Sequence record: PZ049713.1
Length of the DNA: 59,621 bases
Strand: one strand, 5' to 3'
DNA from: a phage
The notes beneath the pieces are model-generated. The model had not been told where the DNA came from, searched no databases, and worked only from the letters and a program-made list of their open reading frames with translations. The position numbers and the translations under genes are program-made. Of the stretch, positions 2,791 to 41,934 are shown piece by piece; the first letter of the stretch is position 1, and each line of letters opens with the position of its first letter.

Positions 2791-2793
2791 CCC

Positions 2794-3510: not shown

Positions 3511-3535
3511 GCTCTATCTCCTGCTGCGTGTGGGG

Positions 3536-3748: not shown

Positions 3749-3807
3749 GAGCAAATCCTCCCCGCCGACTCTCGCCGGCAGACTGTGGGTTTGGGTGGGG
3801 TTAGGGG

Positions 3808-5526: not shown

Positions 5527-5834
5527 TGGCGCCTCCTCGGCGGCTCCGGTGGGCGGCAGCGGAAACAGGGCGCATGGCCGATCCGCTTCCGTCTGTGCGG
5601 CAGAAGATTGGTGCGTTCACAGCGGCAGCGACCTGCACCGCAAGGCATTCGGCCTCGCCGTGGGGTGATGCAAGCCGATTCACTCGATCGCGCCACTCGT
5701 CCATCGACTCCCTGTGTCAGGGTGGCGGCCCGGCTTGTGGCATTCGGGCTGGAGAGGGCAGGCGCTGCAGCTGCTGCGGGACTTGAAGTTGTAGTGCTGG
5801 CGGCAGAGGGCCTTGGCGGTGTCGGATAGCTGGG

Positions 5835-6077
5835 TCACGGAGCAGATCCTTCGTAGCGGCTCACGCGGCGCAATGCGCGGCTCGACGTCGATGAACCGGA
5901 GCCTCGGAAGTCGCCATCGGTAGCGCGGCGACTGTCCACCTCAAGGCGCGCCGTGGCGTTAACCTCGGCCGCGACCTCGGCTACAGCCTTCGCTTGTCTC
6001 AATCGAGTAGGCTGCCGGCCAGCACGCCCTCCATCGTCTTGCCGAGGCATGGCGCGCAGATCACTGAGGTTGTTCAT
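5835..6077 (-). pseudogene. Frameshifted copy of 8995-9234
   Basis: MNNLSDLRA start and the AKAVA.VAAEVNATARLEVD core are kept. The flanks are out of frame. Confidence 0.7.
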
Positions 6078-6709
6078 GGTGCTCTCCAGTTTGTCGAGCT
6101 TCCGCTCGAACCAGCCGAGCGTTATGGCTGCCTGGCGACCCTCGGGCGGATAGCGTTCGATTGAGTTGCGGCGCATGTCTTGTGCGGGTGACTAGCTCGA
6201 GGTTGTCGATTCCAGATGTTGGCGGGGTTGCGATCCTTGAAGACGAGGAAGTGCCCAGCCGGCACTGGGCCGCTGTGCCTTCCCACAACATCACGTGGAC
6301 CGGGCGCCAGTCAGTGCGCTTGTTGCCGGTGTCCGCCACCTTGCGGTAGAGGATGCCGCCCTTGTCGGTGCGCTCCGCTCCGATGGGGCGCCAGGTGTTC
6401 GATGGTCGGTGACCCAGCTTGAACTGCGTGTCCTTGGCCCGGCCTCCTGCCTGCCATCCTTTGCGGCCAGAGTTCCATGTCTGGTGGCCAGGCTTGAACC
6501 TGCCGCAGCCTGTGATTTCCTTGAACTCATCCGGTCGCGTTAGCTCCGAGTTTCGACACGCGATCGTGAATCGAGCCAGTGCCGCGCCCCATCAAGGCTG
6601 CTATCTCGGTGATGGGGCTTGGTGGCATAACAGTTCTGCCAGTGTTGCTGTCCTCTGCCGGCGTCCAGTGCCGGTATTCCGTGCGCCTCCTGCCGGCCAG
6701 TGGGCTCAT
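6061..6709 (-). pseudogene. Frameshifted copy of the HNH_3 endonuclease gene (8364-9011)
   Basis: The MSPLAGRRRTEYRHWTPAED start is embedded in ORF 6527-6877. The C-terminal ...HHEQPQ is in ORF 6061-6339. Confidence 0.8.
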
Positions 6710-6986
6710 TTCTTCCGTCTCCCGTGCGTTGTGGCTGTCCAGCCCGGCGCTGGCTACTTGGTTGCCGTGGTCAGCTATCAGGCTGTCGATCAGGGCGCCC
6801 ATGTAGGCGACTAGGCCAGTGACTGTTTCACCACGGGCCATCGCGCTGTGGGTGTGCTTCTCGCCGTTGGGCAGCACGAACCACGCGCTGGCGTTCCAGC
6901 TCGGAAGGGCGCCGAGGCTCAGTGCCGCGAACTACTGGCCGCGACACTCGGTTGTCGATTGAATAGAGCGTCACGATGCAGCTCAT
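6706..6986 (-). pseudogene. Disrupted copy of 8089-8367
   Basis: Start codon cat at 6984-6986. Only the C-terminal part (LPNGEKHTHSAMARGETV...) stays in frame, and it is fused to the HNH copy. Confidence 0.7.
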
Positions 6987-7138
6987 GGCTGGCACACCTC
7001 CAGCAGTGCCGCGTCGCTCAGATCACCAAGCGGCGCAGCGATGTATTGAGCAAGCGCGTAGACGCCCCACGGCTTGCCAGCGATTTCCGCCCGGTACGCC
7101 GCGTGACGGATGGCGTCGAGCACGTCGGGGAATCTCAT
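6983..7138 (-). CDS. Hypothetical 51-aa protein, duplicate of 7937-8092 (one T/A difference)
   Basis: MRFPDVLDAIRHAAYRAEIAGKPWGVYALAQYIAAPLGDLSDAALLEVCQP forms the tail of ORF 6983-8116. Confidence 0.6.
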   Translation of the reverse strand: MRFPDVLDAIRHAAYRAEIAGKPWGVYALAQYIAAPLGDLSDAALLEVCQP

Positions 7139-7426
7139 GGCCACTCCTGCCGCAGCACGTCGTTCTGCTTGGCCTGCGGAGTGCCGCGCTTGCGCAGAGG
7201 GAGGCTGTTCGATACGGCAGAGTTGCGGGCGCCACGCTTGCGGCTGCGCTGGTCCGCCTCCGCGTTTCCGGCGTTGTTGAAGACGGCAGGCTTGATCTCT
7301 ATCGGCTTGCCGATGCTGTCGGGCAGCAGCTGGATCTTTCCGCCAGCGCTCAGGAATGCAGCCGGGCCGCGTCATCTGCGCGCGCGGAGCCTCGCCCTGC
7401 GCGACGGCATGGTTGTCGATGAGCGT
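7135..7426 (-). pseudogene. Copy of 7647-7940 with lost start codon and a frameshift
   Basis: The ATG equivalent reads cgt (7424-7426). The translation TLIDNHAVAQGEAPRAQ then shifts frame. Confidence 0.75.
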
Positions 7427-7646: not shown

Positions 7647-7940
7647 ATGCTCATAGACAACCATGCCATAGCGCAGGGCGAGGCTCTGCGCGCGCAAATT
7701 GACGCGGCCACGGCTGCATTCCTGAACGCTGGCGGAAAGATCCAGCTGCTGCCCGACAGCATCGGCAAGCCGATAGAGATCAAGCCTGCCGTCTTCAACA
7801 ACGCCGGAAACGCGGAGGCGGACCAGCGCAGCCGCAAGCGTGGCGCCCGCAACTCTGCCGTATCGAACAGCCTCCCTCTGCGCAAGCGCGGCACTCCGCA
7901 GGCCAAGCAGAACGACGTGCTGCGGCAGGAGTGGCCATGA
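7647..7940 (+). CDS. Hypothetical early protein (97 aa)
   Basis: ORF with an ATGA stop/start overlap to the next gene. Identical second copy at 58863-59156. Confidence 0.7.
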   Translation: MLIDNHAIAQGEALRAQIDAATAAFLNAGGKIQLLPDSIGKPIEIKPAVFNNAGNAEADQRSRKRGARNSAVSNSLPLRKRGTPQAKQNDVLRQEWP

Positions 7941-8092
7941 GATTCCCCGACGTGCTCGACGCCATCCGTCACGCGGCGTACCGGGCGGAAATCACTGGCA
8001 AGCCGTGGGGCGTCTACGCGCTTGCTCAATACATCGCTGCGCCGCTTGGTGATCTGAGCGACGCGGCACTGCTGGAGGTGTGCCAGCCATGA
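7937..8092 (+). CDS. Hypothetical small protein (51 aa)
   Basis: ATGA-type coupling overlaps at both ends (7937-7940 and 8089-8092). Confidence 0.6.
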   Translation: MRFPDVLDAIRHAAYRAEITGKPWGVYALAQYIAAPLGDLSDAALLEVCQP

Positions 8093-8367
8093 GCTGCATC
8101 GTGACGCTCTATTCAATCGACAACCGAGTGTCGCGGCCAGTAGTTCGCGGCACTGAGCCTCGGCGCCCTTCCGACTGGAACGCCAGCGCGTGGTTCGTGC
8201 TGCCCAACGGCGAGAAGCACACCCACAGCGCGATGGCCCGTGGTGAAACAGTCACTGGCCTAGTCGCCTACATGGGCGCCCTGATCGACAGCCTGATAGC
8301 TGACCACGGCAACCAAGTAGCCAGCGCCGGCTGGACGGCCACAACGCACGGGAGACGGAAGAAATGA
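8089..8367 (+). CDS. Hypothetical early protein (92 aa)
   Basis: The ATG at 8089 overlaps the upstream stop, and the stop overlaps the next start at 8364. Confidence 0.7.
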   Translation: MSCIVTLYSIDNRVSRPVVRGTEPRRPSDWNASAWFVLPNGEKHTHSAMARGETVTGLVAYMGALIDSLIADHGNQVASAGWTATTHGRRKK

Positions 8368-9011
8368 GCCCACTGGCCGGCAGGAGGCGCACGGAATACC
8401 GGCACTGGACGCCGGCAGAGGACGCAACACTGGCAGAACTGTATGCCACCAAGCCCATCACCGAGATAGCAGCCTTGATGGGGCGCGGCACTGGCTCGAT
8501 TCACAATCGCGTGTCGAAACTCGGACTGACGCGACCGGATGAGTTCAAGGAAATCACAGGCTGCGGCAGGTTCAAGCCTGGCCACCAGACATGGAACTCT
8601 GGCCGCAAAGGATGGCAGGCAGGAGGCCGGGCCAAGGACACGCAGTTCAAGCTGGGTCACCGACCATCGAACACCTGGCGCCCCATCGGAGCGGAGCGCA
8701 CCGACAAGGGCGGCATCCTCTACCGCAAGGTGGCGGACACCGGCAACAAGCGCACTGACTGGCGCCCGGTCCACGTGATGTTGTGGGAAGAGCACAGCGG
8801 CCCAGTGCCGGCTGGGCACTTCCTCGTCTTCAAGGATCGCAACCCCGCCAACATCTCAATCGACAACCTCGAGCTAGTCACCCGCGCAGAGAACATGCGC
8901 CGCAACTCAATCGAACGCTATCCGCCCGAGTATCGCCAGGCAGCCATAACGCTCGGCTGGTTCAAGCGGAAGCTCAACAAACTGGAGCAGCACCATGAAC
9001 AACCTCAGTGA
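8364..9011 (+). CDS. HNH_3-type homing endonuclease-like protein
   Basis: 215 aa. C-terminal ...NPANISIDNLELVTRAENMRRN is typical of HNH_3 phage endonucleases. N-terminal HTH-like ITEIAALMGRGTGSIHNRVSKLG. Confidence 0.75.
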   Translation: MSPLAGRRRTEYRHWTPAEDATLAELYATKPITEIAALMGRGTGSIHNRVSKLGLTRPDEFKEITGCGRFKPGHQTWNSGRKGWQAGGRAKDTQFKLGHRPSNTWRPIGAERTDKGGILYRKVADTGNKRTDWRPVHVMLWEEHSGPVPAGHFLVFKDRNPANISIDNLELVTRAENMRRNSIERYPPEYRQAAITLGWFKRKLNKLEQHHEQPQ

Positions 9012-9234
9012 TCTGCGCGCCATCCTCGGCAAGACGATGGAGGGCGTGCTGGCCGGCACCTACTCGATTGAACAAGCGAAGGCTGTAGCCCAGGTCGCGG
9101 CCGAAGTTAACGCCACGGCGCGCCTTGAGGTGGACATGGCCCGCGCTACCGATGGCGACTTCCGAGGCTCCGGTTTCATCGACGTCGAGCCGCGCATTGC
9201 GCCGCGTGAGCCGCTACGGAGGATTGCTCCGTGA
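8995..9234 (+). CDS. Hypothetical protein (79 aa)
   Basis: ORF within the co-oriented, tightly packed early operon. Confidence 0.6.
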   Translation: MNNLSDLRAILGKTMEGVLAGTYSIEQAKAVAQVAAEVNATARLEVDMARATDGDFRGSGFIDVEPRIAPREPLRRIAP

Positions 9235-9452
9235 CCGAGCTATCCGACACCGCCAAGGCCATCTGCGCCCAGCACTACAACTTCAAGTCCCGCAGCAGCT
9301 GCAACGCCTGCCCTCTCCAGCCCGAATGCCACAAGCCGGCCGCCACCCTGACACAGGAGTCGATGGACGAGTGGCGCGATCGAGTGAATCGGCTTGCATT
9401 ACCCCACGGCGAGGCCGAATGCCTTGCGGTGCAGGAGTCGCTGCCGCTGTGA
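9231..9452 (+). CDS. Hypothetical Cys-rich protein (73 aa, GTG start)
   Basis: The GTG overlaps the upstream stop. Contains CAQHYNFKSRSSCNACPLQPEC. Confidence 0.55.
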   Translation: MTELSDTAKAICAQHYNFKSRSSCNACPLQPECHKPAATLTQESMDEWRDRVNRLALPHGEAECLAVQESLPL

Positions 9453-9543
9453 ACGCACCAATCTTCTGCCGCACAGACGGAAAGCGGATCGGCCAATGCG
9501 CCTGTTTCCGCTGCCGCCCACCGGAGCCGCCCAAGGAGGCGCC

Positions 9544-9948
9544 ATGCGCACCTACACCATCACCGTAACCGAGCGCCAGGCCGCCGAGCTGCAAGAGGCC
9601 TGTGAGCTACTGGCACGCATCAAGATCGGCCAGATCGATCACGCCATTGAGCGGCTGCCGGGCTTCTACGACCGGCGCGACTGGGAGCAGGTCCACGCCA
9701 CGCGGCACGAGATCCAGCGCCTGGCTAACACACTGATGCCGGAGGCCACGAAGCGCCGCGAGGATGGCATTGCGTGGGACTTGTATCAGGTCATCCGGCA
9801 TCGGCTGGCATGGGACCGGGCATATGACCAGGGCGCCATCAAACCCGGCGAGCCGCGTAAATGGCCCGAGATGATGGGCGTCTGCTACGACGAGCCGCTG
9901 GCAATGAGCGGGCTGCCGCTGGCCACAATCAAGGAGATTGAGCAATGA
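9544..9948 (+). CDS. Hypothetical early protein (134 aa)
   Basis: ATG at 9544 is preceded by an aaggagg RBS. The stop overlaps the next start at 9945. Confidence 0.75.
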   Translation: MRTYTITVTERQAAELQEACELLARIKIGQIDHAIERLPGFYDRRDWEQVHATRHEIQRLANTLMPEATKRREDGIAWDLYQVIRHRLAWDRAYDQGAIKPGEPRKWPEMMGVCYDEPLAMSGLPLATIKEIEQ

Positions 9949-16146: not shown

Positions 16147-18182
16147 CCCTTCCATGATCCAGGCGAGCCCGCTACCACGCAAACCCAGCCGCTGTACTGG
16201 CCTGCGGACGGATATCTATTAACTACTCTGTCGCCGGAGTTCCATGTGCCGGTTGTAGGTATGGCTGTGCCGAACCATTCCTTACCGAAGTTGCCCGCTT
16301 GGAGGGTTTCGTAAAGGTACAGGACACCCCCTACAAATTGATTGTCAGCATAATATCGAAGCGGCTCGGCAGGGTTCTTAAAGCGCATTGCAGTTACACG
16401 GAAGCCACTCACAGTATTGCGCGCCACTGACATTGTTGACTGAGTGCCCGATTCGATGAATATGCCGTGCTCCATGAGCGTGGCGTTACCGCGAATGGTA
16501 TTCCCAGTGATTTCTTTCTCTGACCCTGCGGTGATATGAATACCCAAGCCAGCACCGATGCCGCCTGCACGCCCAACATCCTCCAGCTTGTTATTGCTTA
16601 TCTTTGCACCTACACCGTTTGCGTCGAAAATGCCTTGATACTGGGTTTGGCGAATACTGTTCCCGGTCGCAACTAGGTTCGAATACTGATCAAAATAAAG
16701 GCCGGAACGACCCACTACGGCGACAGAGTTGCCTGTAACGTTGGCGTCGGCCGCATACCGAACCGCAATACCATCTTGACCAACGTTAGCAATCGTATTG
16801 CCCGTAATGGACAAGACCTTGCAGCGCATAGGAGTAGCCGTTGGCCCGGTGTTGATAACCTGAATACCGTCACCACCAGACACACCGCTGATCGTGTTAC
16901 CCGTGATTGAAACCGAACCGCTGTTGCCGCCGCCAGCGTCATAATTTTGAACTTTCAGACCTGACGCAACGGTGTTGCGGATAGTGTTACCAGTAATCGA
17001 AAGCCCAAAAATGCCCGTGTCGCAGTACAAGCCATGCTCGGTAACGATGTCGTGTATCACGTTGCCAGTGACGGTCACATTCTCTGAAAGCTGCCCGATG
17101 ATTCCGCCAGACGCTGTTCCCGATATTCTATTACCAAACACATTTATGTTTTTGCCAACCAGGGTGAAGCCTGTTGTGTTTCTGTAGTTGGGGTCGTTCA
17201 GTACCGCGGCACCCGGACCATGAACAACGTTGTACGCGAAGGTCGCACCGTCGACAGGGAGGTTTGTCATCACCGGCGAATATCGGAAATCACGGAAGAC
17301 GTTACCGATAATTTGCAGATTGATCGCTTCGGAGCCGCTGACCCCGATAGCTTGCGATGCTGGGCTATTTACATAGGTCGCCTCGTCGGCACCAATCAAC
17401 TCCAAACCGGTCACGGTTACATCAGACAGGCCATCAGCATCGAACAGTACCGTTTGCACCGCCGTTTGCCGGATCACTGCATGCCGCCCTGACAGATAAT
17501 GGCCAGACCTTAGCTGGAGCTTCCCATTGACCAGGTAATGATCACTCGCGTCACCGAAATCGACGTATAAGCCTGCATTCAGCGCAGCTTGGATTGCCAC
17601 CGTATCATCAGTAACCCCGTCCGCTACCGCGCCGTAAGAACGAGGGCGCACCGTCTTGTCGCTTTCTAGTATTTCAGCGACGGTCCGCGTACCCAGTCGT
17701 ACAAGACTAGCGCCTTCCGCTGCCGCCAACTCCTGCCGCAGCACGTCATCCCCAAGCAGCACGAGGCTGGCAGAGTCAGTCGCCCAAGTGCCAGTGAGCT
17801 CCAGAGGAAGCGTAGCGTCAGGGCCGGGCCGGTAGAGGCCTGCGGTCGTACCGGTAGTGGCCGCATTGACTGCAACGTACTCGTTCCGCTCCTCCAGTAC
17901 GACATTGGCCGCATAGTCGCCCTTGCTCACATAGCCGGAAGACACGAGAAACGCCTGGAACCGGCTCTCCTTATCGGCCTGACTCAGTGTGAACGCGGTT
18001 TCGCGGCCTTCCTGCGCATTGTTGAAGCTGTTTTCCATGCCGGACCACGACTCGCGCAGCTTGCCCAGTCGGTCGGCATAGAACGGATCTGCGCCGTTGA
18101 CCAGCTTGTCGAGGTTCTCGGCGTTGTCGTACAGGTCGCGCGGATCGGTGGACGGGACGTTGTTGCCGGTATTGAATGTCAT
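16125..18182 (-). CDS. Tailspike / tail fibre with pectate-lyase-like right-handed beta-helix (polysaccharide depolymerase)
   Basis: N-terminal MTFNTGNNVPSTDPRDLYDNAENLDKLVNG. YGAVADGVTDDTVAIQAALNAG. Repeated ITGNTI/VTGNxI beta-helix coils. Confidence 0.85.
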   Translation of the reverse strand: MTFNTGNNVPSTDPRDLYDNAENLDKLVNGADPFYADRLGKLRESWSGMENSFNNAQEGRETAFTLSQADKESRFQAFLVSSGYVSKGDYAANVVLEERNEYVAVNAATTGTTAGLYRPGPDATLPLELTGTWATDSASLVLLGDDVLRQELAAAEGASLVRLGTRTVAEILESDKTVRPRSYGAVADGVTDDTVAIQAALNAGLYVDFGDASDHYLVNGKLQLRSGHYLSGRHAVIRQTAVQTVLFDADGLSDVTVTGLELIGADEATYVNSPASQAIGVSGSEAINLQIIGNVFRDFRYSPVMTNLPVDGATFAYNVVHGPGAAVLNDPNYRNTTGFTLVGKNINVFGNRISGTASGGIIGQLSENVTVTGNVIHDIVTEHGLYCDTGIFGLSITGNTIRNTVASGLKVQNYDAGGGNSGSVSITGNTISGVSGGDGIQVINTGPTATPMRCKVLSITGNTIANVGQDGIAVRYAADANVTGNSVAVVGRSGLYFDQYSNLVATGNSIRQTQYQGIFDANGVGAKISNNKLEDVGRAGGIGAGLGIHITAGSEKEITGNTIRGNATLMEHGIFIESGTQSTMSVARNTVSGFRVTAMRFKNPAEPLRYYADNQFVGGVLYLYETLQAGNFGKEWFGTAIPTTGTWNSGDRVVNRYPSAGQYSGWVCVVAGSPGSWKGYGLIQA

Positions 18183-21838: not shown

Positions 21839-22332
21839 TCCTCGTTAATCCCCTCGTCAAACGCACCCATGAAAGTCTGGTATTTCGATTCGGGCCATTC
21901 GCGGTTCATGGACTTGTCAAATAGGCTCGATAGCAGAATGTACTGCGGCGCATAAACCGCCCAACCAGGCGCAACCTTCGGTTTATCGCGCAGCTCAACC
22001 CTCGCCGTGTAGGCCCATCGATCGATCCCGAACAGAGCCGGCCCTTGCGGGCTTTCGAGGAATCTCGCCTGGTGCTCGGTTAGGCCGATCGGTGTCCTGA
22101 GCGTGAGCGCGAACCAGCCGGCGCCAACCACGTCGTCTGCCCAGCCTTCGAACAGCTGGGCCTGAGGCGTCGTGAATATCCAGCGCAACGACACGAATGA
22201 CGGGACGCTGGTGAACCTTATCCGCTGCCTAGCGCGACCGCTCTGCATCTCGGTGCGAAGGATTTTGTTTGCCGCCTCAAGCGCAAAGCCATCCCTGGTC
22301 GGAAACGGAAGCTCTACTGGATACTCAATCAT
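21826..22332 (-). CDS. Minor/distal tail protein (gpM position)
   Basis: 168 aa, directly downstream of the tape measure gene with overlapping stop/start. Confidence 0.65.
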   Translation of the reverse strand: MIEYPVELPFPTRDGFALEAANKILRTEMQSGRARQRIRFTSVPSFVSLRWIFTTPQAQLFEGWADDVVGAGWFALTLRTPIGLTEHQARFLESPQGPALFGIDRWAYTARVELRDKPKVAPGWAVYAPQYILLSSLFDKSMNREWPESKYQTFMGAFDEGINEEWPE

Positions 22333-25300
22333 CGACCCACTCCAGATATGCCGAACTTCCGTCCGATTGCTTGCGATGCAGGTCCGTCGCTATAGATGTC
22401 AGCGACGAATGCGTTCACGTTCCACGAGCCATCGCTGTTTTTAGTCTTCTCGACCTTGCCAGCCTTGCTTGAGTCCTCGATCAGGTTGACGTTGACAGTC
22501 ATGTCGCCGCCACCCTCACCGCCGCTTGAAAGGAAATCCTTCAGGTCGGCGTTCGTGCGCTGGTCAACGACTCGCTCTCCCTTGTCGAGTAGCCATGTGC
22601 CTTCCCGAGGCACGCTGTCGATACCGTCGTGCGCCATGCCGGCAAGCGCCAAGCCAGAAACCGCGGCAGCCATTGGCTCAGTTACAGCGAGCGCCGATGC
22701 CATTGCGGCAGGGGCCATCGCCCACCCAGTGATTGGTATCGCCGCGGCGCTCGCATAGGCGTTAATCCCAGCTTGCAGCGCGGAGGCTTGCGCATTTGTT
22801 GCCATAGCCGAGGCGGCGCTAGATTGCGTAGTCTTTCCGACTAGCAGCTGTACAGCCTGATAGGCAAGCCATTGCGCAGCCATCTGCCCAAGAGCGTTGA
22901 CTACAGAGCGCGCCATCCCTTCAGCCATGCCAGAAACTGCATCGCTCAACGATTCGGCGTCGAATACCATTGATTCGAAGGCATCGCCGAAGCGGCTGCT
23001 GAATCCTTCCACGACATTGCCGGCCAGCTCGTCGAAATTGCCAAGGCTTTCCTCGGCCGCGGCAAGGTATCGCTCCCAGTAGCTGCCATTGACCTCAAGC
23101 AGCTTCTCGTCGCGCTCCTGCTCCAGCCTGATCATGGCCTCGTTGCGCTCTTCTGCAGTGAGCAGCGTTGCGTCCATGATGATCTGGCGGCGGCGCTCGT
23201 AAGACGCTAGGATGGCCTCCTCTTCGGTCATTAGGGCATCGATGATCGATACCGCTTCCCGATTGGTATTTTCCTCAGCCTCGTTGACCTGACGGAGCGC
23301 CTCCGCTTGCTTCTCGTAAGCCTCAACCGCCTGCAAGGCATTGCGAGCACTAGCCAACTGAGACTCTGATGCGCCGTCCATTGACAGCTTGTACAGCGTC
23401 GCCTCGGTCGCGCTCATGCCAAGCATCTGCGCCTGCAGCTCAAGAGCCGATATCTGCTGCTTGAGGTTCTTCTCGGATGTCTTGCCGCGGGCGCGCTCGG
23501 CTTCTTCTAGTCGATAGAGCTGCGTAGCGAGCTGTTCGGCCTCTTCGCGTTCCTCCTTGGTGGCATCAGCGCCAAGCGACTGGATAGCTGCCAGGCGAGC
23601 CCTGGCTTCACCTTGCAGTTTCGCCAGGTCAAGCTGCTCACGCATCCGGGCAATTGCTTTCTGCCCCTCAGTGCTGGTCGTTGGCTCTTCCTGGTCGCTC
23701 AGTTCAGGTGCCTTGCTGCGCTTCGCTATCTCGTCATCGACGGCGCGCAGGCGCTTGCGGTACTTCTCCAGCGCCTCATCAGCGATCAGTGCCTTCTCTG
23801 CCGTGCGCTCCAGTTCTTCACGCCACTCTTGCGCCTTCGCGCTGTTCGGGTAGCGCTGCAGATTGTTGCGCAGCGTTTCGACGCGGGCGTTTAGTGCGGT
23901 GAGTTCGCCGGCCGCGCCGCTGGATTCGGTTTCAATCTTGGTCAGCAGATCCGCGCGCAGAGCGCGCAGCGTTGCATCGCCGAGGTCATTGACCGACTCG
24001 GTAAGCAGGTCGACCGGCTGCTTGGCGTCACGGGCGTTGCTAGCGAAGGTGTAGAGCGCCCCGGCGGCGAGCAAAACCACGCCGGCCGGGCCGCCGAGCA
24101 ACGCCATGGCACTGCGCAGCCCGCCGGCAACGATGGTTCCGACACGCATTGCGCTGTTGAGTGCGTTCTGTGCTGCGGCCTGGTTGGCTGCAGCCTGAAG
24201 CGCCACGGCTTGCGCGGCCGACAGGTTGCGGGCTGCGATCGCGTGGGCGTTGGTGCCCTTGGCGGCCTCGAACTCTGCCCTGGCGACAGCAAGGGCTGCC
24301 ATGGCCGACTGACGCTCAGCGGTAGCACTGGCAGCCGAAACAGCCAGCACCTCGCGCTCTTTTATGAGGCGCGCCCGCAAGGCAAGAAGAGCCTGCCCAT
24401 TCGCTGCGGTCCACGCCAGCATAGCGCTAGTCAGGCGCGCACCGTACGCAATGGCGACGAGTTCAGCAGCGGTACTGATGCCGTCGAGCGCACCCTTCAT
24501 CGCCTCAGTGTCTTCGCTGAACGCGAGTACTGAGTCAGCGGCTGCGATGATGCTATCGGTGACGCTCTGGATCGCCCCGCTCTGGTTCTCGAATGCGACG
24601 AGAATCGCGGTTGTCGCTGTCTTGGCGCGAACACCTGCATCGGTCAGGTTGCTCGCCATATTGGCGGCGGCCTTGGCGTTCTCGTCCAGCGACTTGCGCA
24701 GGCCTTCGGACAGATCACGCGCAGAGAGCTTTCCGGCGGCGCCCATTGCGCGGATCTCTGCCGAGGAACGACCTGTTGCCGCAGCGATGTCATTGATCAC
24801 CGATGGCAGGGCATTGGTGATTGTTTCCCACTGATCGGCGGCCACCTTGCCGGTGTTCATCGACTTGGAGAATGCGCTGATTGCCGTCTCGGCACGCTCG
24901 GCACTGGTGGCGTTCTTCACGAACGCATAGGACATAGAGTCCGTCACGTCCAGCGCCTGCTGAGTCGAGTAACCCATGCTCCGAAGGCTGTCGGCGGTGC
25001 GGATGTACAGCTCCTGGGCTTCCGACAGCGAACGGTAAGTGCCGTTAGCGGTGGCCAGCAGGCGGCGCTGCACAAGCTCGAACTCGGCTTGGCTGCTTGT
25101 GGCCATCTGCACGCGCTCGGCCATCTCCTGGTACGTCTGCACCAGGCCGGCAGCAGAGCGCAGCGCAGATACCGAAACAGCGGCGGCAAGGGTTGTGCCA
25201 AGCGCAGCCACGGCGGTCTTCAGTTGCCCGGTAGCAATGGCATTGCGGCGCGTCTGGCGCTCCAGCTGATCGAACCCACCTTCAGCCTTGCGGGATGCAG

Positions 25301-25382
25301 CTTCCAGGCGATCCAGATCGCTTGCAGCCTTCAGGCCGCTTGTGCTGTCCACGCTCAGGACAAGGCGGGCGTATTCGGTCAT
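22329..25382 (-). CDS. Tail tape measure protein
   Basis: About 1017 aa, Ala-rich helical/coiled coil with a hydrophobic Gly/Ala segment. ATG at 25382 has a ggaga RBS. Follows the chaperone genes. Confidence 0.9.
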   Translation of the reverse strand: MTEYARLVLSVDSTSGLKAASDLDRLEAASRKAEGGFDQLERQTRRNAIATGQLKTAVAALGTTLAAAVSVSALRSAAGLVQTYQEMAERVQMATSSQAEFELVQRRLLATANGTYRSLSEAQELYIRTADSLRSMGYSTQQALDVTDSMSYAFVKNATSAERAETAISAFSKSMNTGKVAADQWETITNALPSVINDIAAATGRSSAEIRAMGAAGKLSARDLSEGLRKSLDENAKAAANMASNLTDAGVRAKTATTAILVAFENQSGAIQSVTDSIIAAADSVLAFSEDTEAMKGALDGISTAAELVAIAYGARLTSAMLAWTAANGQALLALRARLIKEREVLAVSAASATAERQSAMAALAVARAEFEAAKGTNAHAIAARNLSAAQAVALQAAANQAAAQNALNSAMRVGTIVAGGLRSAMALLGGPAGVVLLAAGALYTFASNARDAKQPVDLLTESVNDLGDATLRALRADLLTKIETESSGAAGELTALNARVETLRNNLQRYPNSAKAQEWREELERTAEKALIADEALEKYRKRLRAVDDEIAKRSKAPELSDQEEPTTSTEGQKAIARMREQLDLAKLQGEARARLAAIQSLGADATKEEREEAEQLATQLYRLEEAERARGKTSEKNLKQQISALELQAQMLGMSATEATLYKLSMDGASESQLASARNALQAVEAYEKQAEALRQVNEAEENTNREAVSIIDALMTEEEAILASYERRRQIIMDATLLTAEERNEAMIRLEQERDEKLLEVNGSYWERYLAAAEESLGNFDELAGNVVEGFSSRFGDAFESMVFDAESLSDAVSGMAEGMARSVVNALGQMAAQWLAYQAVQLLVGKTTQSSAASAMATNAQASALQAGINAYASAAAIPITGWAMAPAAMASALAVTEPMAAAVSGLALAGMAHDGIDSVPREGTWLLDKGERVVDQRTNADLKDFLSSGGEGGGDMTVNVNLIEDSSKAGKVEKTKNSDGSWNVNAFVADIYSDGPASQAIGRKFGISGVGR

Positions 25383-25399
25383 GCTTTTCTCCGGGCATG

Positions 25400-25422
25400 A
25401 AAAAGCCCGCACTAGGCGGGCT
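25400..25422 (-). terminator. Intrinsic terminator after the lipoprotein moron
   Basis: Minus strand: agcccgc-ctagt-gcgggct followed by ttttt. Lies between the lipoprotein stop (25435) and the TMP start (25382). Confidence 0.7.
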
Positions 25423-25434
25423 TCGTGAGGTCAT

Positions 25435-25815
25435 TTACTGCTGCTTTGGTGGCTGGGACTGCTGCATGACTTTGTAAGAGGCCTCAATTGTTTTCTGACT
25501 GGCCTCCATCATATCGGCTGTCAGCGTCTGGTTCCCCCATCGCGCAACCTTCCCGTTCTCAAAGGTCACGACCAATCGATCCTGGGCGAGCTGCTCGTTA
25601 TCTACCGGGGTGAAGCCAATCACGACCGGGTTCCAGTAGATCCAACGCTCGCGATCTTCGTTCACATCAGTTCTTCGGGGGAGGCCCATGGTCGCCTGTA
25701 CGTCAGCTTTTGACATTCCCAGCGACAAGTTCATGGACTGCCGGTTGTAGTCGATACGGTTGTTCGCGCAGCCTGCGATGATGAGCATCGCGGCAAAGAT
25801 GAGAATCTTGCGCAT
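25435..25815 (-). CDS. Lipoprotein, BamE/SmpA_OmlA-like (moron)
   Basis: Signal peptide plus lipobox MRKILIFAAMLIIAGC. SLGMSKADVQATMGLP is BamE-like. Lower GC than the flanks. Own terminator. Confidence 0.8.
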   Translation of the reverse strand: MRKILIFAAMLIIAGCANNRIDYNRQSMNLSLGMSKADVQATMGLPRRTDVNEDRERWIYWNPVVIGFTPVDNEQLAQDRLVVTFENGKVARWGNQTLTADMMEASQKTIEASYKVMQQSQPPKQQ

Positions 25816-25847
25816 GGTTCCTCTCCCTGTTTGAAAGGGTCAGATTA

Positions 25848-26470
25848 TCACCGATTCTCGGCCATCGCCTTCAGTGCAGCGCGCTCCATGATCTGGATCG
25901 CCTCCAGGTGGTCGCGTTGCTGCTTGCGCTTGACGCGGTTCATTCGAAACAGCGACTCAAGGGCCGAGTAGTCAAGCCCTGTCGGCCCATTCATACCCAT
26001 GCGCCACTGGGTCTGCATCGAAAGGAAGATGTCGAACACCTGCCAGTTCTCTGGCCAGATTCCGAACCGCTCTTCCGGGAAGTCTTCGGGGCGAAGGCCG
26101 AAGCGGGCCATCTCTTCGGGGTCGGCGTCCTTCCTGAAAAGCCGCTCGACCGCCCCCTCTAGTTTCCCCGGCGGCCGTCCACCAGGGCGGTGATGTACGC
26201 GGAGAAGATGGCTTTCGGGGCCATGACGTAGTTCTTGCACAGCAGCTCGATGCTGGCCGGGCTGAATTCTTCGTCGAGATCCCAGCCCGCCAGGATTTCT
26301 CCAAGCAATGCGGGGTCTTTGATGCTCTTGTTCTTGACCAGGGCGTCGAGGCTGTCCTTGTCGCGGTGCTTGAACTCCATCACCGGCTTGGCAACCTGGC
26401 CATCAGGCAGCGGGATTTCTACCGGCGCCTTGAAGGTAGGGTTCGGGGTCAGGGTGAATTTCACGCTCAT
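25848..26470 (-). CDS. Tail assembly chaperone G-T fusion made by -1 programmed frameshift
   Basis: A -1 shift at G GGA AAC joins the G frame to ...GKLEGAVERLFRKDADPEEMARFG... (ORF 25848-26240). Confidence 0.75.
26159..26470 (-). CDS. Tail assembly chaperone (gpG-like)
   Basis: 103 aa, between the major tail and tape measure genes. Ends one codon after the slippery site. Confidence 0.8.
   Translation of the reverse strand: MSVKFTLTPNPTFKAPVEIPLPDGQVAKPVMEFKHRDKDSLDALVKNKSIKDPALLGEILAGWDLDEEFSPASIELLCKNYVMAPKAIFSAYITALVDGRRGN
26162..26168 (-). promoter_or_regulatory. -1 frameshift slippery heptamer GGGAAAC
   Basis: Zero-frame CGG GGA AAC TAG. X XXY YYZ pattern, analogous to lambda G GGA AAG. 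Confidence 0.75.
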
Positions 26471-26524
26471 GGATAGTCCCTATCTGGAATTGGTAGGCCC
26501 GCCTAGTGACGGGCCTTAGCTGCC

Positions 26525-39035: not shown

Positions 39036-39581
39036 TTATGCCGCTTGCTCAGCAATCAACCCCTCATTACCGAGGATCTCCTGCGCCTCAACCAGCGCTT
39101 GATCCACTTGGCGCTCCAGGTCACGGCGAATGTCCCGGCGCCACCGCTCCAGTGTCTTTTGCGGGCGGCCGTCTTCGTCCCAGCGGTCAAGCTCATACCA
39201 TGCGGCCGGCAATACGCTCGTGCTTCGCTTCCCTTCCGCGCCGGGCAGCTTCGGGAATGCCCAGGTGGCTACGGCGCACTGGATGAACCGGCCAGGTGCT
39301 GGCGACTTCACCGATCCGGCCAGCGCCATCATCGCATCGTGCTTGCGCTCCAGATGGGTGCTGTACTTGGCGACGAGCGCCAGCCACAGACCAACCGGCA
39401 GCGCCTTGTGCAGGCGACCATGGACCCAGCAGTCGGTTAAGAATGCCTCTTCCTTGCCGCAGATCGCCCCAGGCACTCGCTGGTCTTGCACCTTGGGGTC
39501 AAAGTCCACGCCGCCAGCGCTATTGATCGTCTCCGCAGCCAGAGCCCGGACTACTGCTGATACAACTGATGGGTAGGTCAT
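39036..39581 (-). CDS. Hypothetical 181-aa protein in the position of a late-gene antiterminator (Q-like by synteny only)
   Basis: Last gene of the Nin-like block, immediately upstream of a 570-bp leader with tandem terminators. No motif recognised. Confidence 0.6.
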   Translation of the reverse strand: MTYPSVVSAVVRALAAETINSAGGVDFDPKVQDQRVPGAICGKEEAFLTDCWVHGRLHKALPVGLWLALVAKYSTHLERKHDAMMALAGSVKSPAPGRFIQCAVATWAFPKLPGAEGKRSTSVLPAAWYELDRWDEDGRPQKTLERWRRDIRRDLERQVDQALVEAQEILGNEGLIAEQAA

Positions 39582-40723
39582 CAGAACAATCTCCCAAGGG
39601 ATGCTGCGAATTCGTAAGGGTCTTTAGCGCTCTTGCGCAGGTTGCAAGGCGGGCACGCGATAACCAGATTGTCGACCACGTGCATTCCACCCTTCGATAG
39701 CGGCTGATAGTGGTCAACGTGATAGTTGTTTTCACACTTTGATTTGCACCAGTGGCAAAACTTTGGAACTGATCGCTCCCAGGCCATAATCACGGACGTA
39801 CTATCGCCACCAGCCTCTAGCTGTCTGCGCCTAGCCTTGTACGCTTTAGATATCGCCTTCCTGATCTCTGGATTCTTCTTTGCCCACTCTTTGGCTTTCT
39901 GCGCCCTTACTTCCCTGTTTTGTTCGTTGCGAATTCTCGCAAGTTGAATGATCCGATCCCTGTTTTCAGCAAGGTATTTCCGGTCGTACTCTTTTTTAAG
40001 TTCAGACCGTGAGAAAATTGCCAAGCACTCGACACATGATCCGGAGGCTGTATATTTCATGCCGCTGTGGCCCTTCGAGCACGGCCGTCCGACATACATT
40101 AAGGCGCCGCTTTCGAGCGCTATCTTTCGTGCGCTCTTGGCTATCCTGCGCTCCTTGCGACGAGCAGCTACCTCCGCCAGCCGAGACGATCGCTCTTCTG
40201 AGATTCGCTTGCGCTCTGCCTTCCCCTTCTCGTACTCCTCCAGCGTCATTCCGAACTTGGCGGCTGCCGATATAGCCTCGCATGTCCGGCAGCGATCAGT
40301 TGATACGTAGCGCTCTGCTGAATGTCCGTTAACGCACGGCAATCCGATGCTGTAGAACATCAGCCCGGCATCCATAGCAGCTTGCCGGAGAGAAGCGCGC
40401 CGTTCCCTCTCAGCTTTCCGCACGGCCAGCCCTGGATCTCGCTTCAGCCGTCGCGACATTTTCTTCTCTGCGCACAAAGGGTCAGAGTCACGCCGCAGCT
40501 TTTGCTCAGCGCGCTCGGCCTCTATGTTCGCGTGATACTTAGCTTTCCTCTTCAGCCTGGCGCACTCACAGCACGCGCCATTGATCGTGGCCCTGCTGGC
40601 GACGTGACCGGCAGGGCAAGGCTTGCCAGTGAAATAGGATTTGCTGCCGGCCTCCTTCGCCTCTTTTCGGCTGCAAGGAAGGTTCAAGTCATCTTGATCT
40701 TTGTTAGAATTCAAATCAGCCAT
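39581..40723 (-). CDS. HNH endonuclease with three Zn-ribbon repeats
   Basis: ATG at 40723 has a gggag RBS (longest ORF runs to 40816). Repeats YFTGKPCPAGH..GACCEC, FYSIGLPCVNGH..DRCRTC, MYVGRPCSKGH..GSCVEC. C-terminal CHWC..HVDHYQPLSKGG..NLVIACPPCN. Confidence 0.8.
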   Translation of the reverse strand: MADLNSNKDQDDLNLPCSRKEAKEAGSKSYFTGKPCPAGHVASRATINGACCECARLKRKAKYHANIEAERAEQKLRRDSDPLCAEKKMSRRLKRDPGLAVRKAERERRASLRQAAMDAGLMFYSIGLPCVNGHSAERYVSTDRCRTCEAISAAAKFGMTLEEYEKGKAERKRISEERSSRLAEVAARRKERRIAKSARKIALESGALMYVGRPCSKGHSGMKYTASGSCVECLAIFSRSELKKEYDRKYLAENRDRIIQLARIRNEQNREVRAQKAKEWAKKNPEIRKAISKAYKARRRQLEAGGDSTSVIMAWERSVPKFCHWCKSKCENNYHVDHYQPLSKGGMHVVDNLVIACPPCNLRKSAKDPYEFAASLGRLF

Positions 40724-40806
40724 TTGTCGCTCCCATATAGCGCTAATGGTTAGGGCCGGCAGTGTGTTCCCGCACTCTGCTGGCCCGTTCAATTCTACCA
40801 AATTAA

Positions 40807-41934
40807 TCAAGCACATAACATTTCCGGCACAACTTCGTTAACTGCTACTCGCCCATATTCCTTGTGGTAGGTAATACCTATTGCGCGGCGGTTAGAGGCA
40901 TAGCCGAGTCTGGCTGCATATGATCCGGTCGCAGTCAGCGTCGGATGCCTGCGAACTATCATTCCGTTATGCGTAGCGACCTCTTCCTTGTGGTAGTGGC
41001 CGGTGTGCGCCTCTCTGTGCTTTGTGCAGCCCCAAATCTCGGGGAAGTTCGCCGCGAAGATGCCCGGCAGGTCCGAATTGCGCGCCTTGTGGCCGTGATG
41101 AAAGCCGAGCATCGTCTTGCCGTGCTGGTAGACGTAATACGGCGTCTCGCTCATGTTCACTTTCAATCTCGGCTCGTTTTCATATAGAGCCTCGAACATA
41201 TGGCGCAACCACAGCGATCCGGCCAAGTCATGGTTGCCCTCTGCAATTACCAGATGGACTTCCTCGTGCTTTGCCAGCGCCATATCAATAATGCTGCGTA
41301 GAACTTTGATACTAACCCGCACCAACTCTGCATATATGCCAGAGACGTTGAGCGGGTGCCGATTGGTTGGCGTTACTGGCTCCAGTCCGTCAAACGTCAG
41401 GAAGTCGCCTAGCTGGTTGATGACGCAATATCTCGCCTTGGCCGATGCGTTGATCATTGCGGCAAAGCAGCCGACAAGCACGCGCTCGGCTTCTTCGAGG
41501 TTCCAGTCGGCGCCACCCTGGATGGCAGTCGCGTATTCCCCGATGTGACAGTCCGTCAGGGTGTACAGGTTGCACAGCGCGTCGTCGGTTTGGGCAGGCC
41601 CGCCCATTGGCGCCAAGCGGTCTATCTGTTCGCCCATTGCTGCGGCTGCGGCGTGCATTAGCTCTAGCTGCCGTTCGTGGTCGATGCTGGACTTGACCCA
41701 CTGCAGCTTCTGCTCGCCGTCCTTGCCGTACAGTGTCGACGTGCCTTTCAGGTGGAAGCCGTCCGGCACGCTCTTGGTCATGTCGTGCTCCGGGCTCCAC
41801 CCCTGACGAGCCAAGCGCGCCTTATGGGTGTAGACGTTGCGCTCGTGCAGCCCAAGGATCTGCGCAGCCTCTGCCACAGTGCGGCCAGTCAGCGCGGCCT
41901 TGATTTCGTCGTCTGTCGCTTTGCGTGCGGCCAT
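40807..41934 (-). CDS. HTH-containing calcineurin-like metallophosphoesterase
   Basis: N-terminal TVAEAAQILGLHERNVYTHKARLARQG. Phosphoesterase motifs LVIAEGNHD, GFHHGH, HTGHYH. Confidence 0.7.
   Translation of the reverse strand: MAARKATDDEIKAALTGRTVAEAAQILGLHERNVYTHKARLARQGWSPEHDMTKSVPDGFHLKGTSTLYGKDGEQKLQWVKSSIDHERQLELMHAAAAAMGEQIDRLAPMGGPAQTDDALCNLYTLTDCHIGEYATAIQGGADWNLEEAERVLVGCFAAMINASAKARYCVINQLGDFLTFDGLEPVTPTNRHPLNVSGIYAELVRVSIKVLRSIIDMALAKHEEVHLVIAEGNHDLAGSLWLRHMFEALYENEPRLKVNMSETPYYVYQHGKTMLGFHHGHKARNSDLPGIFAANFPEIWGCTKHREAHTGHYHKEEVATHNGMIVRRHPTLTATGSYAARLGYASNRRAIGITYHKEYGRVAVNEVVPEMLCA

What the first reader, a model, noticed from the sequence alone, without database searches (positions are those of the whole stretch)
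25400..25847. BamE-like lipoprotein moron with its own terminator between the tail chaperone and tape-measure genes
25435-25815 (-) encodes a 126-aa protein with a textbook lipoprotein signal (MRKILIFAAMLIIAGC) and a BamE/SmpA_OmlA-like core (SLGMSKADVQATMGLP...). It interrupts the normally invariant chaperone G/GT to tape-measure junction. It is lower in GC than its neighbours and is followed by an intrinsic terminator (25422-25400) only 18 nt before the TMP start. That is the classic moron layout. Phage outer-membrane lipoproteins in tail regions are known to mediate superinfection exclusion by blocking the receptor or DNA entry (for example T5 Llp and lambdoid Cor). A BamE-like fold at this locus would be an unusual variant. 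The terminator inside the tail operon also implies that late transcription must be terminator-resistant.
Basis: partly seen in the sequence, partly recalled or inferred. Interest (0 to 1): 0.55.

Follow-up and report, generated by a model that had tools for sequence, protein, structure and literature searches.

The report
Prophage moron encoding BamE-fold lipoprotein
A small self-contained accessory gene cassette (promoter-like motif, outer-membrane lipoprotein gene, terminator) sits in a prophage tail operon at the same junction as the first moron ever described (HK97 gene 15); the cassette is real and conserved across many phages, but what the protein does is untested.

Summary

The moron reading is well supported.
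- The closest phage, PS-1, carries a different 2.8-kb Ant/Rha cargo between the same breakpoints (25408-25847).
- Across 23 lineages (<90% identity), 19 keep a terminator after the gene (background 1.2%).
- 15 keep a TGnTAnnnT extended -10 motif about 35-40 nt before the start codon (background 2.4%); the window has TGATAATCT.
- The cassette occurs upstream of the TMP gene (17 of 23 lineages), just downstream of it, or upstream of terminase.

Two reader claims are weak. This junction is not invariant: HK97 gene 15, the original moron, sits there. The GC dip is small and GC3 is not deviant.

The protein is not a BamE orthologue. It belongs to a small, tightly conserved, mostly phage-borne family (dN/dS 0.04-0.1) of unknown function. 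Superinfection exclusion is the most likely role but is inferred only. This is a solid moron of a known kind, with moderate interest.

The parts
25408..25847 (-). Variable cassette (440 bp): the whole moron, bounded by the breakpoints of homology to phage PS-1
   Evidence: blastn against PS-1: homology covers window 25000-25407 (96.6%) and 25848-26500 (91%). PS-1 has 2830 bp of unrelated cargo in between.
25842..25850 (-). Extended -10-like promoter motif TGATAATCT (TGn + TAATCT). It overlaps the TGA stop codon of the T chaperone frame. No -35 element is present.
   Evidence: The motif TGnTAnnnT occurs in the -70..-16 region of 15 of 23 lineages, mostly starting at -34 to -41, against 2.4% of background 55-nt windows. 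The same TGnTAATCT is seen in L024 and L060-type loci, which lie in a different genomic context. The built-in sigma-70 scan found nothing here. Activity is untested.
25820..25827 (-). Shine-Dalgarno GGGAGAGG, 4 nt before the ATG
   Evidence: Read directly from the sequence.
25435..25815 (-). CDS for a 126-aa prolipoprotein: signal peptide residues 1-15, lipobox IAGC with Cys16 (25770-25768), mature protein about 111 aa
   Evidence: dN/dS is 0.04-0.10 against relatives. 127 clusters of homologues were found. PHROG 18614 (unknown function), E = 5.6e-40.
25531..25734 (-). BamE/BLIP-like alpha-alpha-beta domain (residues about 28-95), followed by a predicted C-terminal helix (residues 98-119)
25400..25423 (-). 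Intrinsic terminator: stem AAGCCCGC/GCGGGCTT, loop CTAGT, T5 run
   Evidence: dG -13.4 kcal/mol. A terminator-like site lies within 70 nt of the stop codon in 19 of 23 lineages, against 1.2% background, with differing stems: GCCCGC/GCGGGC, CCTCGC/GCGAGG or GCGGGG, CCCGC/GCGGG. It is present whatever the genomic position of the cassette.
25848..26470 (-). Upstream flank: tail assembly chaperone G (26159-26470) and its -1 frameshift product GT (T part ends 25848); slippery site GGGAAAC at 26168-26162
   Evidence: Pfam Phage_TAC_4 E = 4.8e-27 and DUF1799 E = 5.7e-27. Sequence read.
22329..25382 (-). Downstream flank: tape measure protein, 1017 aa, with RBS GGAG at 25392-25389
   Evidence: Pfam TMP_3 E = 2.7e-43 and PHROG 339. 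Same length as PS-1 gp71.

Best explanation
The region is a moron: a 440-bp, horizontally mobile, self-contained transcription unit inserted between the GT chaperone and tape-measure genes of a Stutzerimonas/Pseudomonas PS-1-like temperate siphovirus prophage. It consists of an extended -10 promoter, a ribosome-binding site, a lipoprotein gene and an intrinsic terminator.

Shown here:
- The cassette anatomy.
- Its replacement by other cargo in the closest phage.
- Conservation of the promoter motif and terminator across 23 lineages and three genomic positions.
- Strong purifying selection on the protein.
- A Sec/Lgt/LspA-type lipobox.
- A BamE/BLIP-like fold.

Inferred:
- The promoter needs no -35 element and no phage activator, so the gene would be transcribed in the lysogen.
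- The product would be lipidated and sorted by Lol to the inner leaflet of the outer membrane, because +2 is Ala and there is no Lys3-Ser4.
- There its small protein-binding domain would bind a conserved envelope or incoming-phage component.
- The most likely pay-off is superinfection exclusion at the outer-membrane/periplasm step of genome entry, as with HK97 gp15, which sits at the same locus and acts on tail-dependent DNA entry.
- The terminator insulates the repressed TMP and tail-tip genes from this transcription. In lytic growth it must be read through or be leaky.
For: - Breakpoints against PS-1 are exact: the T stop codon on one side and the terminator's 3' arm on the other. PS-1 is an isolated, viable phage with Ant/Rha cargo there, so the gene is dispensable for virion assembly.
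- Terminator present in 19 of 23 lineages against 1.2% background.
- Extended -10 motif present in 15 of 23 lineages against 2.4% background, at a conserved distance from the start codon.
- Cassette positions: directly upstream of TMP in 12 lineages and upstream with one small ORF between in about 5 more (17 in all); directly downstream of TMP in L002, L025 and L027; about 0.55 kb upstream of terS/terL in L024 and L060-type loci.
- The upstream chaperone families differ between hosts: TAC_4/DUF1799, DUF6246, YdaY/TAC_18.
- The lipobox is universal.
- The fold is supported.
- dN/dS is 0.04-0.10.
- Mature proteins are 62-74% identical between lineages whose TMPs are only 26-39% identical.
- L004 has a 96%-identical lipoprotein and a similar TMP but a different tail-tip module (lambda M/L/K/I/J type, against DUF1833 type in the window). 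The gene therefore travels with the tube-chaperone-TMP block and not with the receptor-binding protein.
- HK97 gene 15 sits at the same junction and excludes phages in a tail-dependent way (PMC3594210).
- In some lineages a second lipoprotein gene is coupled downstream, ahead of the terminator.
Against: - There is no expression or phenotype data.
- No sequence or profile similarity to any known exclusion protein; no PADLOC or NCBIfam hit; no paper on this family in the library.
- The window's -10 hexamer TAATCT matches the consensus at only 3 of 6 positions, has no -35, and was not found by the sigma-70 scan.
- The compositional signal of foreign origin is weak.
- High conservation across beta- and gamma-proteobacterial hosts points to a conserved host target, which fits a host-physiology role as well as exclusion.
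- Two lineages (L017, L021) lie in apparently non-phage chromosomal surroundings.
- Linkage to the TMP gene may only reflect a permissive insertion site or co-transfer with the TMP 5' end.
Confidence: 0.5

Rival explanations
1. Lysogenic-conversion envelope factor unrelated to phage exclusion. On this view it is a Bor- or OsmE-like outer-membrane lipoprotein that improves the lysogen's envelope robustness (osmotic, detergent, serum or antibiotic stress).
For: - In the Klebsiella-type lineage the cassette lies just upstream of the terminase genes, which is where lambda carries bor (own knowledge).
- Very high conservation across hosts fits a conserved host partner.
- Copies in non-phage chromosomal contexts, L017 and L021, suggest value to the cell without the phage.
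Against: - 17 of 23 lineages sit beside the TMP gene. A pure host-fitness gene has no reason to prefer that site, although a permissive site would suffice.
- OsmE itself has no known mechanism.
- No data are available.
Confidence: 0.22
2. BamE mimic. On this view the lipoprotein docks on BamA POTRA5/BamD in place of, or beside, host BamE. It would alter outer-membrane protein assembly or the state of BamA, for example by reducing receptor display or blocking phages and toxins that exploit BAM.
For: - Pfam BamE is above the gathering score.
- A profile of the family finds BamE and OmlA chains as the best meaningful PDB sequence matches.
- A universally conserved target would explain 62-74% identity across orders.
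Against:
- No NCBIfam BamE model is hit.
- BLIP-like proteins score at least as well, so the fold is a generic binding module.
- The invariant motifs (PRRTDVN, RERWIYW, DNE, DRLVVTF) are family-specific.
- The family is tiny: 217 representatives at E <= 1e-3 among 1.84 billion. It is separate from the very large BamE family.
Confidence: 0.1
3. Periplasmic inhibitor or immunity protein. On this view the BLIP-like domain neutralises a periplasm-acting enzyme, such as a T6SS or bacteriocin effector or a peptidoglycan hydrolase, possibly the cell-wall-degrading activity of an incoming tail.
Against: - Identities are 12-15%, so this is fold-level similarity only.
- No cognate effector gene lies in the cassette.
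- The window phage's tip module shows no recognised hydrolase domain.
Confidence: 0.08
4. A late-function phage protein (tail assembly, virion component or lysis accessory such as an o-spanin) and not a moron.
For: It has the same orientation as the late operon and lies inside it, so it is necessarily co-transcribed whenever the terminator is read through.
Against: - It is absent from the viable close relative PS-1.
- It carries a signal peptide and lipobox.
- Its position in the genome varies.
- It has its own terminator and promoter motif.
- The phage has its own Rz-like spanin (DUF2514, 13852-14367) elsewhere.
- The mature protein is about 111 aa and folded, unlike the short proline-rich Rz1 proteins (own knowledge).
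Confidence: 0.03

Closest known systems
HK97 gene 15 moron (gp15 superinfection exclusion protein)
   Same: - Same locus, between the tail assembly chaperone and tape-measure genes.
- Same compact layout with its own promoter and terminator.
- Sits in a temperate siphovirus.
- gp15's exclusion depends on the tail region of the incoming phage (PMC3594210), and here the gene is linked to the TMP block and not to the RBP.
   Different: gp15 is a small inner-membrane protein. This product is a lipobox lipoprotein with a folded BamE/BLIP-like domain and is predicted to be outer-membrane anchored. There is no sequence relationship, and no function has been shown here.
Cor (phi80/N15/HK022) and T5 Llp outer-membrane exclusion lipoproteins
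   Same: Phage-encoded lipoproteins that act from the periplasmic side of the outer membrane and are expressed to block later infection (van den Berg et al., bioRxiv 10.1101/2022.06.28.497910, listed; the remainder is own knowledge).
   Different: - Cor and Llp are encoded next to the receptor-binding protein gene and are specific for its receptor, FhuA. This gene sits next to the TMP gene and stays the same when the tip module changes.
- No Pfam or PHROG hit to those families.
- Different fold.
BamE / SmpA / OmlA (BAM complex lipoprotein) and OsmE, Pfam PF04355
   Different: - Not an orthologue. It is mostly phage-borne (88 loci, of which 2 of the 14 genome loci lie in non-phage surroundings).
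- It has its own invariant motifs, an extra beta-hairpin and a C-terminal helix.
- Sequence similarity to BamE chains is only marginal.
- No NCBIfam hit.
Lambda Bor lipoprotein moron
   Same: Prophage-expressed outer-membrane lipoprotein moron. One lineage of this family (L024, L060 type) lies just upstream of the terminase genes, which is where bor lies in lambda (own knowledge).
   Different: No hit to Lambda_Bor in Pfam. Most lineages of this family are in the tail operon.

Membership tests
Phage moron (Juhala/Hendrix sense; definition in PMC3594210) | Extra DNA at a site where a closely related phage lacks it | tested here: met
   PS-1 (81-96% nt identity in the flanks) lacks the gene. The breakpoints are at 25407/25408 and 25847/25848. 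PS-1 carries other cargo at the site and does not have an empty site.
Phage moron (Juhala/Hendrix sense; definition in PMC3594210) | Own terminator | tested here: met
   Hairpin plus T5 at 25423-25400, -13.4 kcal/mol. 19 of 23 lineages have one, against 1.2% background, in all three genomic contexts.
Phage moron (Juhala/Hendrix sense; definition in PMC3594210) | Own promoter | tested here: inconclusive
   The conserved extended -10 motif TGnTAnnnT occurs in 15 of 23 lineages, against 2.4% background. The window copy TGATAATCT is a weak hexamer with no -35 and was missed by the sigma-70 scan. No transcript data.
Phage moron (Juhala/Hendrix sense; definition in PMC3594210) | Base composition deviating from neighbours | tested here: inconclusive
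   GC 54.9% against 59.9 +/- 4.1% (14th percentile). GC3 is 72%, close to the TMP gene's 70.5%.
Phage moron (Juhala/Hendrix sense; definition in PMC3594210) | Expressed from the repressed prophage | not testable with these tools
   Needs RNA-seq or a reporter in a lysogen.
Bacterial outer-membrane lipoprotein | Signal peptide with lipobox [LVI][ASTVI][GAS]C | tested here: met
   MRKILIFAAMLIIAGC. The lipobox is conserved in every homologue with a sound start call.
Bacterial outer-membrane lipoprotein | No inner-membrane retention signal (Asp at +2 in enterics; Lys3-Ser4 in Pseudomonas) | tested here: met
   The mature N-terminus is C-A-N-N. Position +2 is Ala in nearly all homologues and never Asp. 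The sorting rules are from my own knowledge.
Bacterial outer-membrane lipoprotein | Actual lipidation and outer-membrane localisation | not testable with these tools
   Needs globomycin or palmitate labelling and membrane fractionation.
Pfam BamE domain (PF04355) / BLIP-like fold | Profile score above the curated cut-off | tested here: met
   28.8 bits against 23.2, residues 30-93.
Pfam BamE domain (PF04355) / BLIP-like fold | Two helices packed on an antiparallel sheet | tested here: met
BamE orthologue (BAM complex subunit) | Groups with canonical BamE by sequence | tested here: not met
   No NCBIfam hit. The family profile scores against PDB BamE chains at E 0.3-0.6. Only 217 representatives reach E <= 1e-3 among 1.84 billion proteins.
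BamE orthologue (BAM complex subunit) | Core chromosomal gene | tested here: not met
   All 74 IMG/VR loci, and 11 of the 14 genome loci, lie in phage tail or packaging contexts.
BamE orthologue (BAM complex subunit) | Binds BamA POTRA5 / BamD | not testable with these tools
   Only single-chain structure prediction was available.
Cor/Llp-type receptor-blocking exclusion lipoproteins | Homology to Cor or Llp | tested here: not met
   Pfam and PHROG searches return only BamE, DUF3192, PHROG 18614 and PHROG 3135.
Cor/Llp-type receptor-blocking exclusion lipoproteins | Encoded next to, and co-varying with, the receptor-binding protein gene | tested here: not met
   The gene is adjacent to the TMP gene. 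L004 has a 96%-identical lipoprotein but a different tip/J module.
Cor/Llp-type receptor-blocking exclusion lipoproteins | Exclusion phenotype | not testable with these tools
   Needs EOP and adsorption assays.
HK97 gp15-type exclusion moron | Located between the tail chaperone and TMP genes | tested here: met
   PMC3594210.
HK97 gp15-type exclusion moron | Small inner-membrane protein | tested here: not met
   It is a lipobox lipoprotein with a soluble folded domain.
o-spanin (Rz1) | Lies in the lysis cassette, embedded in or next to an i-spanin gene | tested here: not met
   It lies in the tail operon. The Rz-like DUF2514 gene is at 13852-14367.

The most novel reading that the evidence does not exclude
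The lipoprotein could be a new type of superinfection-exclusion protein. On this reading a BamE-fold mimic, anchored in the inner leaflet of the outer membrane, engages a universally conserved envelope machine (BAM or similar) or the emerging tape-measure/tip channel. It would block tape-measure-dependent genome passage across the periplasm independently of the receptor. That would explain both its preferential linkage to TMP genes and its 62-74% conservation across beta- and gamma-proteobacterial phages.
Probability: 0.12. Interest if true: 0.7.

Novelty: new member of a known kind. Interest (0 to 1): 0.36.

Why it matters
Morons are the main route by which prophages change their hosts, and most moron proteins have no known role. 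This one belongs to a compact family with several features that make it a tractable candidate:
- It is unusually conserved (dN/dS below 0.1, and 62-74% identity across orders).
- It is found in prophages of Stutzerimonas, Alcaligenes, Halomonas and many Enterobacterales, including Salmonella, Klebsiella and E. coli.
- It has a clear promoter-gene-terminator design.
- It prefers the HK97 gp15 site.

If it excludes phages or alters the outer membrane, that would matter for phage therapy host range and for envelope biology. If not, it remains a clean example of how the chaperone-TMP junction serves as a cargo slot.

Tried and rejected
- phmmer of the single protein against PDB sequences gave only chance hits to beta-glycosidases. 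The profile search gave marginal BamE/OmlA hits.
- NCBIfam and PADLOC gave no hits.
- Literature searches for BamE/SmpA/OmlA with prophage, moron, tape measure or exclusion found nothing relevant. Two apparent hits were the author name 'Bamert'. The original gp15 paper, PMC3430355, is not held.
- The built-in promoter/terminator scan found neither feature at this locus. I explained the terminator miss and replaced the scan with my own scanner plus background controls.
- The fold of the 61-nt region as a whole is not exceptional (z = -1.25). Only the local hairpin and its conservation carry weight.
- I looked for a Q-like antiterminator at the expected position (39036-39581). Pfam gave no hit. 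This was not an exhaustive search.
- The afdb50 fold library was unavailable.
- I considered and rejected an o-spanin, a virion component and a true BamE orthologue (see the membership tests).
- I tested whether the gene tracks the receptor-binding module. It does not.
- Rfam found no RNA family at the locus.

Full report
**1. What is in the sequence**

On the minus strand, 25815-25435 is an ATG-initiated ORF of 126 codons. It is preceded by GGGAGAGG (25827-25820).

The N-terminus is MRK-ILIFAAMLII-AGC, that is, a positive n-region, a 10-residue hydrophobic core and the lipobox I-A-G-C with Cys16.

Upstream lie two tail-chaperone frames:
- G, at 26159-26470 (Pfam Phage_TAC_4).
- The -1 frame T extension, which ends at 25848 (DUF1799).

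The canonical slippery heptamer G GGA AAC sits at 26168-26162, just before the G stop codon. The shifted frame reads GKLEGAVERLF..., which is the T ORF.

Downstream is the tape measure gene (TMP_3, PHROG 339). Its real start is ATG 25382, behind GGAG at 25392-25389. That gives 1017 aa, the same length as in phage PS-1.

Between the lipoprotein stop codon and that RBS lies AAGCCCGC-CTAGT-GCGGGCTT followed by more T's (25423-25400), with dG -13.4 kcal/mol.

The built-in scan missed the hairpin, because A-U extension of the stem uses up the T-run. With my own scanner it is one of only 10 such sites on this strand of the window.

**2. What the protein is**

Sequence evidence:
- Pfam BamE (PF04355) is hit above its gathering score, 28.8 against 23.2 bits.
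- The best PHROG is 18614, 'unknown function', E = 5.6e-40.

Structural evidence:
- An AlphaFold2 model built on a 41-sequence alignment has core pLDDT 87-94.
- It shows two short helices, a sheet with an extra hairpin, and a long, less confident C-terminal helix.

The BamE/BLIP-like fold is therefore confirmed. It is a generic small protein-binding module.

The protein is not a BamE orthologue:
- No NCBIfam model is hit.
- The family profile reaches PDB BamE and OmlA chains only at E 0.08-0.6.
- An exhaustive HMM search of 1.84 billion representatives finds just 217 proteins at E <= 1e-3 and 27 at E <= 1e-10. This is a small, separate family.

Its members share invariant motifs absent from BamE: PRRTDVN, RERWIYW, DNE, DRLVVTF and WG.QT.

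**3. It is a real, selected gene**

Homologues at 55-99% identity occur in Stutzerimonas, Alcaligenes, Halomonas and many Enterobacterales.

Against relatives, dN/dS is 0.04-0.10.

Mature proteins from different lineages are 62-74% identical, while the adjacent tape measure proteins are only 26-39% identical.

The lipobox is universal. Position +2 is Ala (rarely Thr or Met) and never Asp. By the known Lol sorting rules (my own knowledge) this predicts an outer-membrane lipoprotein facing the periplasm.

**4. It is a moron**

*(a) Presence/absence.* The closest phage in GenBank is Pseudomonas phage PS-1, at 81-96% nucleotide identity in the flanks. Homology runs up to the T stop codon (25848) and resumes inside the 3' arm of the terminator (25407). 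Between these points PS-1 has 2830 bp of unrelated cargo (Ant- and Rha-type antirepressors and small ORFs) in place of the window's 440 bp. PS-1 is an isolated phage, so the lipoprotein is not needed to build virions.

*(b) Terminator.* I collected 88 related loci plus loci from exact-protein look-ups. I dereplicated them to 23 lineages at <90% protein identity.
- 19 of 23 lineages have a GC-rich hairpin plus T-run within 70 nt of the stop codon. The background is 1.2% of 70-nt windows in the same loci.
- The stems differ (GCCCGC/GCGGGC, CCTCGC/GCGAGG or GCGGGG, CCCGC/GCGGG), so pairing is maintained through sequence change.
- In several of the lineages without one, a second gene follows, often a second lipoprotein translationally coupled to the first (L010: 206 aa, LLSGC; L054/L022: 107 aa, FISGC). 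In L010 the terminator comes after that gene.

*(c) Promoter.*
- 15 of 23 lineages carry TGnTAnnnT, an extended -10 element, in -70..-16 relative to the start codon. Twelve of them start at -34 to -41. The background is 2.4% of 55-nt windows.
- The window has TGATAATCT (25850-25842), overlapping the T stop codon.
- Klebsiella-type loci have TGTTAATCT or TGCTAATCT at the same distance in a completely different genomic neighbourhood. The motif is therefore not a stop-codon artefact.
- Extended -10 promoters need no -35 (my own knowledge), which suits a cassette that must work wherever it lands.
- The window's hexamer is weak and activity is untested.

*(d) Mobility.* The cassette occurs in three contexts:
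- Directly upstream of a TMP gene: 12 lineages, plus about 5 more with one small ORF between.
- Immediately downstream of the TMP gene: Flyfo siphovirus L002 (next to a YafO toxin), L025 and L027.
- About 0.55 kb upstream of terS/terL: L024 and L060 type.

The chaperone families upstream differ between hosts (TAC_4/DUF1799, DUF6246, YdaY/TAC_18). Two lineages sit in apparently non-phage chromosomal surroundings (L017 near uvrC/pgsA, L021 near phenol hydroxylase genes). One sits in a Mu-like prophage (L101).

*(e) Composition.* This is the weakest criterion. The gene is 54.9% GC against 59.9 +/- 4.1% (14th percentile), and its GC3 equals that of the TMP gene.

**5.

The chaperone-TMP junction is not 'normally invariant'. 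[quoted passage not shown] PS-1 and Salmonella prophages hold other cargo at the same junction.

A hairpin plus T-run directly upstream of the TMP RBS is present in the window, PS-1, Alcaligenes and Salmonella phages whatever the cargo.

For this protein family, the site upstream of the TMP gene is the usual home and not an oddity.

**6. How it probably works**

Shown: the cassette anatomy, its mobility, selection on the protein, the lipobox and the fold.

Inferred:
- Constitutive transcription in the lysogen from the extended -10 promoter, ending at the terminator so that the TMP and tip genes stay silent.
- Export, lipidation and Lol sorting to the outer membrane.
- Binding of a partner through the BLIP/BamE-like domain.

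Which partner is unknown. Two observations constrain it.
- The gene is not tied to the receptor-binding module. L004 has a 96%-identical lipoprotein and a closely similar TMP but a lambda-type M/L/K/I/J tip. The window has a DUF1833-type tip, a 900-aa J-like protein and a beta-helix spike. This argues against a Cor/Llp-style receptor-specific block.
- The protein is far more conserved than any neighbouring phage protein. This argues for a conserved target, either a host envelope machine or a conserved step of entry.

The best analogy is HK97 gp15. It has the same locus and layout, and its exclusion depends on the incoming tail and not the receptor. It differs in being an inner-membrane protein, whereas this product is predicted to be an outer-membrane lipoprotein.

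My confidence estimates:
- About 0.9 that this is a moron lipoprotein cassette.
- About 0.45 that its role is superinfection exclusion.
- Rivals: a Bor/OsmE-like envelope fitness factor (0.22), a BamE mimic acting on BAM (0.10), a periplasmic inhibitor or immunity protein (0.08), and a late or structural function (0.03, largely refuted).

**7. The terminator and late transcription**

It does not require antitermination. A T5 tract followed by C-A-T may simply be leaky, which would also suit the low copy number of the TMP.

Other terminator-like hairpins lie on the late-gene strand: 27216-27195, just before the major tail gene, and 30932-30876.

Pfam recognised no Q-type antiterminator in the ORF at the expected position, 39036-39581. 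That test was not exhaustive, so the point stays open.

**8. Novelty and verdict**

The kind is well known: a prophage moron encoding an envelope lipoprotein.

The protein family is already catalogued (Pfam BamE domain, PHROG 18614, NCBI 'BamE domain-containing protein') but uncharacterised. I found no paper on it.

New here are three observations:
- The conserved promoter-gene-terminator design.
- The preference for the gp15 site.
- The exceptional conservation of the protein.

Overall this is a solid, ordinary-in-kind finding with a testable functional question. I rate its interest as moderate.

Noticed in passing
window 369-7364 and 7711-14715: These two stretches form a near-perfect (99-100%) inverted repeat of about 7 kb centred near 7535, broken only by 1-3-nt indels. 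Each arm joins DNA like the PS-1 spanin end to DNA like the PS-1 integrase side. It is either inverted or tandem polylysogeny next to the prophage, or an assembly fold-back artefact.
   Followed up: partly
window 54390-54469 (+): Rfam Proteo-phage-1 sRNA (RF03044), 70.2 bits against a gathering score of 42, in the early region of the prophage.
   Followed up: no
window 27216-27195 (-) and 30932-30876 (-): Further terminator-like hairpins with T-runs lie inside the late operon: one directly upstream of the major tail protein gene and a tandem pair near 30.9 kb. They bear on whether late transcription is antiterminated.
   Followed up: no
L001 4405-7234 (phage PS-1 gp66-gp70); L010 3177-5893: The same chaperone-TMP junction holds antirepressor-type modules in other phages: Ant/Rha in PS-1 and Arc + Bro-N + ORF6N in Salmonella prophages. 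The junction acts as a general cargo slot.
   Followed up: partly
L010 6384-7004; L054 6384-6707; L022 6360-6683: In Salmonella and Enterobacter-type prophages a second, unrelated lipoprotein gene (206 aa with LLSGC; 107 aa with FISGC, PHROG 19981) overlaps the stop codon of the BamE-like gene by 4 nt. In L010, where it was checked, this second gene lies ahead of the terminator, giving a two-lipoprotein moron.
   Followed up: no
L017 5407-5784; L021 5986-6345: Two family members lie in apparently non-phage chromosomal contexts: between uvrC/pgsA and a thioredoxin-reductase-like gene, and next to phenol hydroxylase genes. They may be prophage remnants or domesticated copies.
   Followed up: no
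window 16125-18182 (-): A 685-aa beta-helix (pectate-lyase-like) tail spike has clearly lower GC than its neighbours (55.1%, GC3 60%, against about 64% and 80% for the J-like gene). PS-1 homology covers only its first ~460 nt (17725-18182). It looks like a recently exchanged host-range module.
   Followed up: no
L003 4989-5363 (Escherichia phage mEp013 gene 85): A distant homologue (30% identity, E = 3e-6; window protein also matches PHROG 3135) in a lambdoid coliphage. It is annotated as hypothetical and is followed by an annotated rho-independent terminator.
   Followed up: no
window 39581-40816 (-): A 411-aa ORF with a C-terminal HNH nuclease domain lies in the early/late transition region. 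PS-1 has several HNH genes at other positions.
   Followed up: no
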